From the IMG/VR virus record IMGVR_UViG_3300042503_001656, positions 1 to 64,000 of that record: a DNA stretch of 64,000 nucleotides. One strand, 5' to 3'. Shown piece after piece: positions 1,574 through 39,058 of the stretch. Under the pieces are notes generated by a model, which was not told where the DNA came from, did not search any database, and worked only from the letters and a program-made list of their open reading frames with translations. The DNA comes from an uncultured virus (IMG/VR IMGVR_UViG_3300042503_001656). Lineage: Duplodnaviria; Heunggongvirae; Uroviricota; Caudoviricetes. Each line of letters starts with the position of its first letter. The stretch's first letter is position 1. The position numbers and the translations under genes are program-made.

Positions 1574-1647
1574 GGGCCCTTAGCTCAGTTGGTTAGAGCG
1601 CCGGACTCATAATCCGTTGGTCGTGGGTTCAAGTCCCACAGGGCCCA
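1574..1647 (+). tRNA. tRNA with CAT anticodon, most likely tRNA-Ile2 (lysidine, reads AUA)
   Basis: GGGCCCT/AGGGCCC acceptor stem, TAGCTCAGTTGGTTAGAGC D-arm, CTCATAA loop, GTTCAAGTCC T-arm; resembles bacterial Ile2; no encoded CCA. Confidence 0.9.
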
Positions 1648-1802
1648 CAAGCGTAAAACCTAGTTGACGGGGTTTTATGTCAGGAAAACAGCAAGGCAAG
1701 CCTCGCCGAACTTTTCGTTTCTATCAGTGTCAATTGTCAACCTCTTGATAGATAGGCGGGGGCCTTGTTGTTTTCCGAACACCTCTAAACGAAAGAAAAG
1801 TT

Positions 1803-8263: not shown

Positions 8264-8272
8264 ACTACTCTG

Positions 8273-8345
<73 letters not shown>

Positions 8346-8517
8346 TTATTTTGTTACGAGCATACTCGCTCTCGGGATAAAGTTTCTCTATCACTGTTGG
8401 GACTTTACGACACAATCCACAACGCCCCATAGAATGATAAGCACTATGTCTGTGTATCGGCCAGTCTCGACAACAGCGCAAAATAATCAGTTGATTCCAA
8501 AACTCATCACTCATTAG

Positions 8518-8589
8518 CACCCCCGATAGGAATCGAACCTACGCACATAGTTTAGGAAACTACTGCTCTATCCACTGAGCTACGGGAGT
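8518..8589 (-). tRNA. tRNA-Arg(CCU)
   Basis: Reverse complement ACTCCCGTAGCTCAGTGGATAGAGC...TTCCTAA...GTTCGATTCC. Confidence 0.9.
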
Positions 8590-8976: not shown

Positions 8977-9008
8977 TTTCTCTCCGTTTGTTAGATACAC
9001 AAGTATCG

Positions 9009-9081
9009 TACCCCTAGCAGGGCTCGAACCTGCGACGCACGGATTAAAAGTCCGACGCTCTACCAACTGAGCTATAGGGGC
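9009..9081 (-). tRNA. tRNA-Lys(UUU)
   Basis: Reverse complement GCCCCTATAGCTCAGTTGGTAGAGC...CTTTTAA...GTTCGAGCCC. Confidence 0.92.
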
Positions 9082-27711: not shown

Positions 27712-27798
27712 CCAGGCAGCATAGACCGGATGGCAGCAAAAACACGGGGCTCAAAACAGATTTGTCGGTTAGGGGTGGGGGGTAGTAAGGTGGTTCTT

Positions 27799-28005
27799 GT
27801 GAGGGAGACCCACCGCCTCTCCTCCGATACAACCGAATCGCACCAGTCCCTCCGCAGGATAAGGCTCTGGACAGCAAGCCTCTGATGGGCGTACGACCAT
27901 CAAGCATCCGCCACAGTCCACCCGTCCTCCCTCTCGCGCGATAACTGCTCTAGGCTCGGGGGTGCTAGCCCCAGTATCGGAGGTGGGGCGGGGGGTCTTT
28001 TTCTT
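27799..28005 (+). ncRNA. Candidate ~205-nt structured sRNA (copy 1)
   Basis: Promoter copy 27762; 27801-27830 pairs with 27974-28003 (30 bp, 2 mismatches); U-rich 3' end; CCTCC motifs; GGATAAGGCTCT shared with copy 2. Confidence 0.75.
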
Positions 28006-28074
28006 TGTGCCAAAAGCGGGGCTTGGCACAAAGAAAGTTTGTCGGTCGTGGGTGGCCTGTTCTAAGATTGTCTT

Positions 28075-28377
28075 ATGAAAACAACAGCGAACAACGAAAC
28101 AAGGGCAGCAATGAACGCTGCGTATCTAAACCCATTCGTCACGACATTGACTCTTGACGAAGTGCCGCACAAACGCAAATACACAAAAGAGCTGCGGGCT
28201 GGAGATTTCGTGGCCGTGTTTGTCAGCACCTCTCAGAAAGTTTGGGAAGGCTATTTTTCTTGGAAAGAAATCCGGACGATTGCTGCGACCCCCCAGGCCT
28301 ATGTCCTGAAGTTCACAGACGGAACAGACGAACGACACCCAAAGTTCTCAGCAGGTAAATGGGAAGTGATGAAATAA
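28075..28377 (+). CDS. Leaderless hypothetical protein (MKTTA)
   Basis: Promoter copy 28039. Confidence 0.7.
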   Translation: MKTTANNETRAAMNAAYLNPFVTTLTLDEVPHKRKYTKELRAGDFVAVFVSTSQKVWEGYFSWKEIRTIAATPQAYVLKFTDGTDERHPKFSAGKWEVMK

Positions 28378-28495
28378 CCCGCCGGAAATTCCGGCAGCCG
28401 CACGCACGAGTGGCTAGCCCCGCTAGCCACTAATACGTGAGTGCTCCTCTTTCGTAAATTGTCGGTTAGGGGTGGGTGGGTGTAATGTTGGAGAC

Positions 28496-28792
28496 ATGAA
28501 CACAACAGCAACAACACACACACAGTCAGCCCAACTAATTGACGATGCAACCCGTGAGGGTCGCCTCTATCACTTCAACGGTGGGCAGGCATACATCAAA
28601 GCAAGTGAGGACGATGTTCTCCTAATCATTGACATGACACAGGAAACACCCGACTTCACTTACCACTATGGTGAGTTTGCCTCTAACTACTTCCGTAACA
28701 ACCACCCACAGCCCACAGACAGGGAACCACTTGTTCCGTTCTACGCAGAAGTGGACAAAAGAAAATTGTCGGTTCAGGGTGGGAAGAACTAA
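28496..28792 (+). CDS. Leaderless hypothetical protein ending in the next promoter repeat
   Basis: Promoter copy 28459; C-terminus LSVQGGKN. Confidence 0.7.
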   Translation: MNTTATTHTQSAQLIDDATREGRLYHFNGGQAYIKASEDDVLLIIDMTQETPDFTYHYGEFASNYFRNNHPQPTDREPLVPFYAEVDKRKLSVQGGKN

Positions 28793-28801
28793 GATAGAGA
28801 C

Positions 28802-28984
28802 ATGGAAACAGCACAAGCATTCATCATCGTCACTTGGTTCTTGGTCAAGTGTGCAGGACTCGCAATCTTTGCAGTCGGCGCATACACCACTATCCAATGG
28901 ATTAGGAAAAATGTCTCATTCTTCACTTACGAAGATGTAGACCCATCAGAAGACCCCGACTGGGTTCGGGAAAACTACGGATAA
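28802..28984 (+). CDS. Leaderless small membrane protein (METAQ)
   Basis: Promoter copy 28766; hydrophobic N-half. Confidence 0.7.
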   Translation: METAQAFIIVTWFLVKCAGLAIFAVGAYTTIQWIRKNVSFFTYEDVDPSEDPDWVRENYG

Positions 28985-29109
28985 CAATCCGTAGACAGCG
29001 ACAGCGAGAAAGTTCTTGCTCCCAGTTTGTCGCTGTACTGGTTGAGCAGAAAGAGAAAGAGTCACTTTCGGGTGGCTCTTTCTCTATGTGGAGCCCCGGT
29101 TCTCCGGAC

Positions 29110-29313
29110 AAAAAGAAAGAGCCCCAGCAATAAAGCTGAAGCTCTTCTCTCCTTGTGACTCACCATTAGAGCTCTCAAGGAAGAGCTTATGTCTGGTCGT
29201 GAGCCAATCCAGCAAGGGGGACTTCCTTACCCGATAGTTGGTATCTGCCGATGTCCCTAACCCAATCGAGCTAAGTACGGTTTCGTTCCTCAACAGCAGT
29301 GTCCCTGACTGAT
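29110..29313 (-). ncRNA. Candidate minus-strand ~200-nt transcript without a credible ORF
   Basis: TTGACA-N17-TAATGT at 29348-29320(-); terminator hairpin plus U-tract ending near 29110. Confidence 0.4.
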
Positions 29314-29432
29314 AGGTAAACATTACCAGCATTTCTCCAGCTTGTCAACTCAAATAGTCACGGCCTCAATCTAGGCAACGGGGCTCATTTCCCGATTTGT
29401 CGGGTCAGGGGGGGTGGTGATAAATTGGTCTT

Positions 29433-29641
29433 GTGAGCGAGGCTCTTCGCCTCTCCCACACACAACATAAGTGCATAGTCTCCCTTCTGGATAAGGCTCT
29501 TGTCACTGCGATAGTCCCTCCACTCTCCGGAAGTGCGATACTCCCTCCAGTCAGACAATCCGTCCTCCTCTGAATAGACCTCTCCTTATGGGGGTGACGA
29601 CCTCGTGTGTGGGTGGGGCGAAGGGGCTCGCTCTTTCTTTT
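29433..29641 (+). ncRNA. Candidate ~205-nt structured sRNA (copy 2)
   Basis: Promoter copy 29397; 29435-29463 pairs with 29605-29633; U-tract; repeated TGC(G)ATA(G/C)TC(C/T)C units. Confidence 0.75.
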
Positions 29642-29732: not shown

Positions 29733-30035
29733 ATGGAAACAGCAACAACATTGGAAACATCAGTCGGCAACCAACTCCCAAAGGGAAACGGCTCATTCTC
29801 GGTCACTACGATTGTCAATGGACTGATTATCACGCCAAGCAACTCATCAGCGATTAGTCAAATCAACTACCTCGCTGATGACAGCGTTCTTGTCGTGACA
29901 TACAGCAACGGTGGTATGTACCACTACAAAGAAGTCCCAGCAACGGTGGTATTCCACTTATTGGTTGCCGAGAGTTTTGGAAAGTTCATCAACGCACACA
30001 TCAAGCCACACTACGAGTTTCGCAAAATCTGGTAA
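29733..30035 (+). CDS. KTSC-domain protein (copy 1), leaderless
   Basis: SSAISQINY...LVVTYSNGGMYHYKEVP...LLVAESFGKFINAHIK. Confidence 0.85.
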   Translation: METATTLETSVGNQLPKGNGSFSVTTIVNGLIITPSNSSAISQINYLADDSVLVVTYSNGGMYHYKEVPATVVFHLLVAESFGKFINAHIKPHYEFRKIW

Positions 30036-30564: not shown

Positions 30565-30861
30565 ATGGAAACAGCAACAACATTAGAAACATCACTCGGC
30601 AACCAACTTCCTTCGGGCAACGGTACTTTCACTGTCCTTGACAGTGGAAACCTCATCATCAGACCAACCTCATCAGCAATCAGCAAAGTCAATTACCTCA
30701 TTGACTCGCAAGTACTTGTTGTGAAATACAACGGCAGTGAGACCAAATACTTCTATCGGAATGTTCCCGTAGCAGTGGCGTTCCACCTGCTAATCGCTGA
30801 CAGTTTCGGCAAGTTCATCAACGCTCACATCAAGCCCAACTACGAGTTCTGGACAAGTTAG
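30565..30861 (+). CDS. KTSC-domain protein (copy 2), leaderless
   Basis: SSAISKVNY...YFYRNVP...ADSFGKFINAHIK. Confidence 0.85.
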   Translation: METATTLETSLGNQLPSGNGTFTVLDSGNLIIRPTSSAISKVNYLIDSQVLVVKYNGSETKYFYRNVPVAVAFHLLIADSFGKFINAHIKPNYEFWTS

Positions 30862-31708: not shown

Positions 31709-32017
31709 ATGACATCAACAGCGATTCAGTATCAAACAGCACAACACGACCTTCCAATGCCAAAGGGCAACGGAACATTTATTGTCTTTGCAGACGGAAC
31801 CCTAATGGGTCACCCCGAATCATCGGCAGTAGCAGAATGGAACTACCTTGTCCACACGGCAACGCTTGTAGTGGAATACAAGGGAAGCCCCAAGCAATAC
31901 TTCTACGAAGAAGTACCTTCCTACAAGGTCTTCCAAATGCTCGCCAGCGAAAGCATTGGGGCTTTCATCGCCAAGGCAATCAAGCCACACCATCAAGTGT
32001 GGTCGCCCGAGCGCTAA
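31709..32017 (+). CDS. KTSC-domain protein (copy 3), leaderless
   Basis: SSAVAEWNY...YFYEEVP...ASESIGAFIAKAIK. Confidence 0.8.
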   Translation: MTSTAIQYQTAQHDLPMPKGNGTFIVFADGTLMGHPESSAVAEWNYLVHTATLVVEYKGSPKQYFYEEVPSYKVFQMLASESIGAFIAKAIKPHHQVWSPER

Positions 32018-38719: not shown

Positions 38720-39058
38720 ATGAACACAAACAAGACACAAAACCAATTGGAGTCACTGATGCAACTCCATTGGGATGTCATCAAATCATTTGGGCCGACA
38801 ACAGCAATAGAGATTCGCTTTCACGCAAATCGCTCACTGAAGTCATACCAACTACTAGCAACATGCTCAGAAGCGGGCTCTGTTTATTACACGCTCCACT
38901 ACAACCCACGAGGGAACTACCCAATGTCACTGAGTTACATCAGTGGTCATGACAGCACAGACGTCACTCTGCCAATGAAAGCCTATTCAGGCTGGCAGTC
39001 TGATGTGCTTGCGTGGATTATCAGTAACCCTGCCTACACAGTAGACGAGGTCTACTGA
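38720..39058 (+). CDS. Leaderless hypothetical protein
   Basis: Promoter copy 38683. Confidence 0.7.
   Translation: MNTNKTQNQLESLMQLHWDVIKSFGPTTAIEIRFHANRSLKSYQLLATCSEAGSVYYTLHYNPRGNYPMSLSYISGHDSTDVTLPMKAYSGWQSDVLAWIISNPAYTVDEVY

What the first reader, a model, noticed from the sequence alone, without database searches (positions are those of the whole stretch)
27799..29641. Two homologous ~200-nt structured sRNAs loaded with anti-Shine-Dalgarno motifs inside a leaderless early regulon: candidate SD-translation shut-off system
Seen: two copies of the promoter (27762, 29397) lead into ~205-nt units that start GTGAG and have U-rich 3' ends. In each, the 5' and 3' ends form a 29-30 bp stem with two mismatches. 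Both stems have the same CGCCUCU/UGGGGCG core and U-U mismatch, but different, compensating flanks (CCUCCGAUAC/GUAUCGGAGG versus CCCACACAC/GUGUGUGGG). Both carry GGAUAAGGCUCU, which lies in different frames of the short GTG ORFs, arguing against coding. The interiors display repeated C/U motifs (GUCCCUCC, CUCCCUCC, GUCCUCCU, CUCUCCUU), complementary to GGAGG/AAGGAG. About 36 genes behind the same promoter are leaderless, and promoter-proximal leadered ones mostly use AAAGGAA/AAAGGGG. Known: C-rich boxes in Gram-positive sRNAs (S. aureus RNAIII, RsaE) pair with SD sequences. Inference: the RNAs mask host SD sites while leaderless phage mRNAs escape. Alternatives: a 6S/Ms1-like RNAP decoy or a protein sponge.
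Basis: partly seen in the sequence, partly recalled or inferred. Interest (0 to 1): 0.93.

Follow-up and report, generated by a model that had tools for sequence, protein, structure and literature searches.

The report
Self-pairing phage RNA rod family
An uncultured phage of actinobacteria carries two copies of an uncatalogued, rod-shaped RNA of about 205 bases whose tip always reads as a palindrome, so it probably pairs with a second copy of itself and acts as a decoy or scaffold rather than as a blocker of host ribosome-binding sites.

Summary
Two paralogous ~205-nt RNA genes (27799-28005, 29433-29641) start at the same distance behind the early promoter as 36 leaderless genes.

I found 11 distinct full units in six lineages (42-66% alike), only in related phages, with no Rfam match. 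40 of 55 model pairs covary, on a model-fitted alignment.

The anti-SD reading is weak. CCUCC is missing from 4 of 11 units. The C/U tracts are the 3' strands of repeated internal-loop modules, and the near-invariant strand is their partner GAUAAGGCUCU. SD-word use is the same in phages with and without the RNA (91:40 vs 92:41). The tracts are cheap to open, though, so SD pairing is not excluded.

The stronger signal is the apical loop. It carries a 6-nt palindrome in 11 of 11 units, with six different hexamers, against 56 of 1678 control loops. Two of the swaps are at positions too close to pair within one chain. This points to a kissing-loop homodimer, as in OLE.

Best reading: a self-dimerising decoy or scaffold whose partner is unknown. 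No expression data. The scan noted this family and its tip before, on another genome (e1-5765528, e1-5765537).

The parts
27762..27791 (+). Early promoter copy driving unit A (-35-like TTGTCG, -10-like TAAGGT); predicted start 27799
   Evidence: same offset as the leaderless ATGs; inferred, not mapped
27799..28005 (+). ncRNA unit A, rod-shaped, U-rich 3' end
   Evidence: 97% and 89% identical to the G105 and G101 units, while flanking DNA of the G101-type phage aligns at 66-87%
27801..28003 (+). Unit A closing helix P1: 27801-27830 paired with 27974-28003; CGCCUC/GGGGCG core, U-U mismatch
   Evidence: helix 1: 19 of 27 model pairs change on both sides
27858..27929 (+).
   Evidence: low nearest-neighbour pair probabilities, 0.03-0.30
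27844..27947 (+). Unit A module N: CAGUCCCUCC (27844-27853) opposite CGAUAACUG (27939-27947)
   Evidence: fold and reading of the alignments; module boundaries set by eye
27884..27901 (+). Unit A apical hairpin with palindrome CGUACG (27890-27895), predicted kissing loop
   Evidence: unpaired probability 0.92-1.00
27959..27972 (+). Unit A side hairpin at the three-way junction (contains a second palindrome, GCUAGC)
   Evidence: helix 8
29397..29426 (+). Early promoter copy driving unit B; predicted start 29433
29433..29641 (+). ncRNA unit B, paralog 57% identical to A
29435..29633 (+). Unit B closing helix P1: 29435-29463 paired with 29605-29633
29490..29567 (+). Unit B module M: GAUAAGGCUCU (29490-29500) opposite AUCCGUCCUC (29558-29567); two head-to-head N-type modules lie between it and the tip
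29521..29535 (+). Unit B apical hairpin with palindrome UCCGGA (29526-29531)
29591..29604 (+). Unit B side hairpin with GACG loop

Best explanation
Each unit is a stand-alone early RNA gene made from the phage's repeated promoter. The RNA folds into a rod: a long helix joins the 5' and 3' ends, a small side hairpin forms a three-way junction, two to four weakly paired internal-loop modules follow, and the apical loop is typically one pyrimidine plus a 6-nt palindrome. Two identical molecules pair tip to tip through that palindrome. Paralogs in one phage carry different palindromes and so form separate homodimers. The dimer displays the repeated modules with two-fold symmetry and most likely binds and titrates a host protein or complex (decoy or scaffold). 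Shown by sequence comparison: non-coding, conserved fold, promoter position, palindrome kept through changes. Inferred: transcription, dimer formation. Least certain: protein binding and the target.
For: Fold: 96.7% of cells paired; 40 of 55 pairs change on both sides; covariation 0.577 against 0.199 shuffled and at most 0.12 for slid controls (alignment fitted to the model, 11 full units plus one 3' fragment). An invariant U-G pair (11 of 11) and model scores of 141-205 bits on + against at most 29 on - favour an RNA over a DNA hairpin. Tip: a hexamer palindrome at positions 92-95 in 11 of 11 units, with six different hexamers: CGUACG, UCCGGA, CCUAGG, UCUAGA, GCUAGC, ACUAGU. Control 7-8-nt loops in these phages: 56 of 1678. 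G016 and G031, G033 and a truncated copy in G028 were found after the pattern was noted and all fit. The swaps at positions 3/4 (UA to CG) and 2/5 (C-G to G-C) enclose 0 and 2 nt, the argument used for OLE L9.3 (PMC12286853, passages). A CUAG loop drives kissing dimers in HCV 3'X (PMC5934655, passages). Self duplexes beat all cross duplexes, and A x B gives -0.6 against -6.4 and -8.7. Module M is duplicated in tandem in 4 units, and the truncated G028 copy keeps module M and the tip.
Against: No transcript evidence. Only six lineages, and four share CUAG, whose outer pair could simply close a tetraloop within one chain, so two events carry the between-chain argument. Tip opening costs up to 3.3 kcal/mol in G031. 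Module M pairs have low predicted probability in most units (0.01-0.47 in 8 of 11). No partner protein was found: KTSC is absent from 6 RNA+ fragments and present in RNA- G009; no Ro60 or RT in 5 RNA+ records.
Confidence: 0.42

Rival explanations
1. Anti-SD shut-off: the C/U tracts open and mask host Shine-Dalgarno sites, while leaderless phage mRNAs escape.
For: Tracts open cheaply. The best predicted sites on SD regions of a proxy actinobacterial genome (G169) cluster on the module M 3' strand in A, G031 and G033, and the SD-minus-control preference exceeds shuffles for A (-3.8 vs -2.3+-0.5), B (-3.5 vs -2.6+-0.6) and G033 (-4.2 vs -1.1+-0.8) (8 shuffles each). Six of 7 RNA+ relatives show large leaderless arrays. 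Early genes here avoid GGAGG/AGGAG. 6C RNA is an actinobacterial precedent (PMC6486639, passages).
Against: CCUCC absent in 4 of 11 units, and no anti-SD 5-mer at all in 2. The tract covaries with its partner inside the RNA. Absolute binding to SD regions is no better than shuffles in 6 of 8 units tested. SD use is independent of RNA presence. 8 of 47 late gene calls use GGAGG/AGGAG and would be hit. The link with leaderless arrays rests on a label with only 2 changes on the marker tree, and G008 and G009 have leaderless genes without the RNA.
Confidence: 0.12
2. 6S/Ms1-like decoy of host RNA polymerase.
For: Size of about 200 nt, a rod with joined ends and a 3'-side hairpin; a 192-nt 6S-like RNA binds RNAP-HrdB in Streptomyces (PMC8539372, passages).
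Against: No large central bubble: the largest predicted interior loop is 4x5 in A, 4x4 in B and at most 6x5 in any unit. No Rfam 6S or Ms1 match. The phage appears to rely on -35/-10 promoters itself. Does not explain the palindrome.
Confidence: 0.1
3. A monomeric protein sponge or nuclease substrate/decoy (for example for RNase III or a double-stranded-RNA sensor), in which the palindromic tip is only a stable or protein-read loop.
For: A 27-28-bp closing helix with a near-invariant core; CUAG shared by four lineages; repeated modules.
Against: A protein-read or stability loop would not be expected to switch among CUAG, GUAC and CCGG while staying palindromic.
Confidence: 0.22
4. A DNA-level element (cruciform, recombination or origin site) or a small-peptide gene.
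For: Long inverted repeats; units A and B begin with GTG at the leaderless position.
Against: Conserved G-U pairs and strand asymmetry; position behind each phage's own, different promoter; a 5' GTG ORF of 15 aa or more in only 4 of 11 units, with different lengths and frames.
Confidence: 0.05

Closest known systems
OLE RNA (with ROOL and GOLLD), PMC12286853, passages read
   Same: RNA-only homo-oligomer with a symmetric kissing loop whose palindrome switches among GGCC, GAUC and AGCU; long coaxial helices; proposed protein sequestration; ROOL and GOLLD occur in phages.
   Different: No Rfam match. The unit here is about 205 nt with a single unbranched arm, sits behind an early promoter rather than beside tRNAs, and occurs as paralogs with different palindromes.
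HCV 3'X dimer linkage sequence, PMC5934655, passages read; retroviral dimer initiation loops (mentioned there)
   Same: Apical palindromic loop (CUAG in HCV, as in four lineages here) that starts a kissing homodimer.
   Different: Part of an RNA virus genome, not a stand-alone gene; no homology.
6C/B11 sRNA of Actinobacteria (RF01066), PMC6486639, passages read
   Same: C-rich tracts in an actinobacterial setting; 6C pairs with G-rich ribosome-binding sites.
   Different: 6C shows its C-runs in two open 9-10-nt hairpin loops of a 76-nt RNA; here they lie in internal loops, vary between homologs and have a conserved partner strand.
Abundant early non-coding RNA of cluster A mycobacteriophages, PMC5712189, passages read
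   Same: Non-coding RNA made from an early actinophage promoter; the region is toxic to the host; function unknown.
   Different: About 500-bp region; no match to GenBank phages by blastn (best E 2 and 8).
6S RNA / Ms1 / scr3559, PMC8539372, passages read
   Same: Size and rod shape with joined ends.
   Different: No central bubble, no Rfam match, phage-encoded.

Membership tests
Any Rfam 15 family | Covariance-model match at the gathering score | tested here: not met
   Window: only 4 tRNAs; no hit on either unit's + strand at E up to 10; none on 5 homolog units at E up to 1
6C/B11-type anti-RBS sRNA | C-runs in open terminal loops, conserved across members | tested here: not met
   Tracts lie in internal loops; CCUCC absent from 4 of 11
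6C/B11-type anti-RBS sRNA | Preferential pairing with SD regions | tested here: inconclusive
   the 6C positive control itself did not clearly beat its shuffles; proxy host only
6C/B11-type anti-RBS sRNA | Repression of SD-led reporters, rescued by compensatory changes | not testable with these tools
   Needs an experiment
6S/Ms1 RNA | Large central bubble that mimics an open promoter (feature recalled; promoter-like structure stated) | tested here: not met
   Largest interior loop 4x4 to 6x5
6S/Ms1 RNA | Binds RNA polymerase | not testable with these tools
   Needs pull-down
OLE/ROOL/GOLLD-like self-assembling RNAs (works like) | Loop palindrome kept through changes at positions that cannot pair within one chain | tested here: met
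   11 of 11 units, six hexamers, one swap at the central two bases and one at positions 2/5
OLE/ROOL/GOLLD (membership) | Family model match and large multi-domain structure | tested here: not met
   length about 205 nt
OLE/ROOL/GOLLD-like self-assembling RNAs (works like) | Oligomer seen in vitro | not testable with these tools
   Needs native gel or mass photometry
Y RNA / YrlA | Ro60 (TROVE) gene in the same genome (feature recalled) | tested here: not met
   PF05731 in 0 of 5 RNA+ records, one of them complete
Retron ncRNA | Adjacent reverse transcriptase (feature recalled) | tested here: not met
   PF00078 in 0 of 5 RNA+ records

The most novel reading that the evidence does not exclude
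A phage RNA that dimerises through a self-coded palindromic tip and so becomes a multivalent device whose weakly paired C/U strands capture host Shine-Dalgarno sites (or the machinery that reads them), shifting translation to the phage's dozens of leaderless early mRNAs: an RNA-only host shut-off with paralog-specific dimer codes.
Probability: 0.1. Interest if true: 0.92.

Novelty: new variant of a known kind. Interest (0 to 1): 0.64.

Why it matters
Natural RNA-only assemblies are known mainly from a few large RNAs. A 205-nt phage RNA with a kissing tip that changes but stays palindromic, and with paralogs that carry different codes, would be a small and tractable case: six natural variants can be transcribed and tested for dimer formation directly. 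Its restriction to some lineages and its early promoter suggest a role in host takeover or counter-defence carried out by RNA. If the SD-masking reading were right after all, it would be a new way to shut off host translation.

Tried and rejected
Expression: no RNA holder listed; laying four runs gave three short pieces, none on either unit. This is no evidence either way.

The single metagenome scan used this phage's promoter word, which relatives do not share, and gave no homolog, so metagenome members were not sampled. 18 of the 118 loci were not in the covariance-model search (all were covered by nhmmer).

GenBank phages: no meaningful match. Host homologs: model R2 rang in 0 of 151 genomes of the phylum sample and 0 of 150 of the class of G169; not found in those searched.

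Partner proteins: KTSC rejected as an obligate partner. Window 38720-39058 tracks most RNA+ records (G101, G105, G028, G016, G031) and none of 6 RNA- sets, but is missing from G032 and G104 and follows the clade; the atlas gave only a sub-0.9 lead to DUF6275.

Antisense targets in the phage's own genome: longest matches 11-13 nt, not pursued. A 65-nt hairpin in G008 (18.6 bits) was dropped as a non-member. The SD-binding computation was inconclusive.

Literature searches listed no description of this family; subscription papers and supplements, including those of PMC5737381 (passages read), were not seen.

Full report
Setting. The window is the first 64 kb of a 118-kb virus record. WhiB, an Rpf-type transglycosylase domain, ThyX and three KTSC genes point to a phage of Actinomycetota; the host is inferred, not identified. 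A repeated promoter-like word occurs 49 times in the window. In 37 of 50 copies in the contig an ATG or GTG follows at +36/+37 with an ORF of 35 aa or more; one of these is unit B's own GTG, leaving 36 leaderless genes. Units A (27799) and B (29433) begin at +37 and +36, so their first G is the likely transcription start.

Observation. Both units fold far better than shuffles (z -3.2 and -5.9), with the closing stems, core and U-U mismatch described. No third copy exists in the contig. Rfam shows only four tRNAs in the window and nothing on the units.

Family. Pattern scans, protein-anchored retrieval of related phage records and two rounds of covariance models gave 11 distinct full units in 12 records. 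They fall into six lineages, 42-66% alike: A/G105/G101, B/G102B, G031, G028a, G016/G028b/G103 and G033. G028 also holds a truncated copy. Model R2 found a full unit in 11 of 61 related records, and in only 1 of the 12 that are at least 90% complete (G102, near-identical to this phage). It found none in 151 and 150 bacterial genomes. The RNA is therefore accessory. On a two-protein tree of 13 phages the label needs 2 changes. Related phages use different promoter words, yet the units sit directly or within about 60 nt behind their own phage's word (for G031 only a -10-like word was seen). A 5' GTG ORF exists in 4 of 11 units only.

Structure. On the model-fitted alignment (11 units plus one 3' fragment), 96.7% of cells pair, 40 of 55 pairs change on both sides, and covariation is 0.577 against 0.199 shuffled and at most 0.12 when slid. 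Fitting inflates these numbers, but independent single-sequence folds give the same outer helices in most units (the inner arm of G028b and G033 folds differently). An invariant U-G pair and strand asymmetry of the model score favour RNA. The arm is built of repeated modules. Module M is G(A/C)UAAGGCUCU opposite (A/C)YCCGYCCUC; it is present in all 11 units and tandem in four. Module N, read by eye, is RGUCCCUCC opposite CGAU(A)AC, and occurs head to head near the tip of B and G031. In G033 the A-U pair of M becomes C-G, and in G028b/G103 G-U becomes G-C. Predicted pair probabilities for M are low in most units, so the module is either dynamic or stabilised by non-canonical pairs or a ligand.

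The tip. Every unit has a hexamer palindrome at positions 92-95, in the apical loop: CGUACG, UCCGGA, CCUAGG, UCUAGA, GCUAGC, ACUAGU. The usual loop is one pyrimidine plus the hexamer. Among 1678 control hairpins with 7-8-nt loops in these phages, 56 (3.3%) hold such a palindrome. All four outer pairs occur around CUAG, which pairing within one chain could explain. The B-type swap of the central UA to CG and the A-type swap at positions 2/5 enclose 0 and 2 nt and are hard to explain that way. Kretsch et al. use the same argument for OLE (PMC12286853, passages), and a CUAG loop starts kissing dimers of HCV 3'X (PMC5934655, passages). Paralogs within one phage differ in their palindrome (A and B here; G028a and G028b), and A x B cross pairing is negligible.

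Testing SD masking. Against it: CCUCC is missing in 4 of 11 units and two have no anti-SD 5-mer. RAAGG versus GGAGG/AGGAG use in early loci is 91:40 with the RNA and 92:41 without. Promoter-proximal leadered genes do not sort by RNA presence: GGAG versus AAGG is 1:6 in G000, 0:1 in G101, 3:5 in G105, 7:6 in G032, 3:6 in G028 and 1:12 in G016, against 9:0 in G009 and 0:10 in G008. G008 and G009 have leaderless genes without a unit. For it: the tracts open at 1.6-4.6 kcal/mol; early gene calls here lack GGAGG/AGGAG (0 of 41 against 8 of 47 late, p=0.006, crude starts); six of seven RNA+ relatives show leaderless arrays while G017, G025, G026 and G027 showed none in the DNA scanned (G026 in part); and three units prefer SD regions of a proxy host more than their shuffles do. 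That computation was under-powered, since the 6C control did not clearly separate from its shuffles either. I put SD masking at about 0.12.

Other families. There is no central bubble for a 6S/Ms1 reading, no Ro60 or reverse transcriptase in 5 RNA+ records, and KTSC does not track the RNA.

Verdict. This is a real, uncatalogued phage RNA family. The comparative evidence favours a tip-to-tip homodimer that presents repeated internal-loop modules, most simply as a decoy or scaffold for a host factor. My estimates: RNA gene about 0.95, dimer about 0.7, dimer acting through protein binding about 0.42. Nothing here shows expression or a target. Eight literature searches listed no description; supplements were not read. 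Earlier agents of this scan reported the same family on another genome. New in this report are the test of the anti-SD idea, the module anatomy, the control rate for the palindrome and the OLE-type argument.

Noticed in passing
L432:2605 (+, G016), L444:19303 (+, G028), L449:3001 (+, G032): A second candidate ncRNA of about 85-105 nt behind the early promoter: a three-way junction with conserved ACUGAAGAG, UAA and ACAGG and variable stems. No Rfam gathering match in the three 20-kb loci scanned; not found by the same pattern in this contig.
   Followed up: partly
G028:C1:13284-13337 (-), locus L599: Truncated copy of the family that keeps module M and a UCUAGA tip, downstream of a homolog of window gene 38170.
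   Followed up: partly
window about 27745, 28017, 28416, 29378, 29656, 30104; also L057, G028, G016, G032, G008: The word CGGGGCT/AGCCCCG recurs in both orientations just upstream of early promoters and in loops of intergenic hairpins; possibly a DNA-binding site.
   Followed up: no
window 4704-43044 and related records: Related phages keep the promoter geometry but swap the word between the -35 and -10 elements, and G028 uses a different GGAAAC...GGTATAG type; this may be a phage-specific regulator site.
   Followed up: partly
window 29733-30035, 30565-30861, 31709-32017: Three stand-alone KTSC genes, each leaderless behind its own promoter; G009 and G026 carry KTSC matches inside giant (3,700-4,000 aa) reading frames.
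   Followed up: partly
window 38720-39058: 112-aa leaderless gene without a PHROG match, shared by five RNA+ relatives and none of six RNA- sets; weak atlas lead to DUF6275.
   Followed up: partly
window 1574-1648, 8272-8345, 8517-8589, 9008-9081: tRNA-Met, two tRNA-Arg (TCT, CCT) and tRNA-Lys (TTT).
   Followed up: no
   Followed up: no
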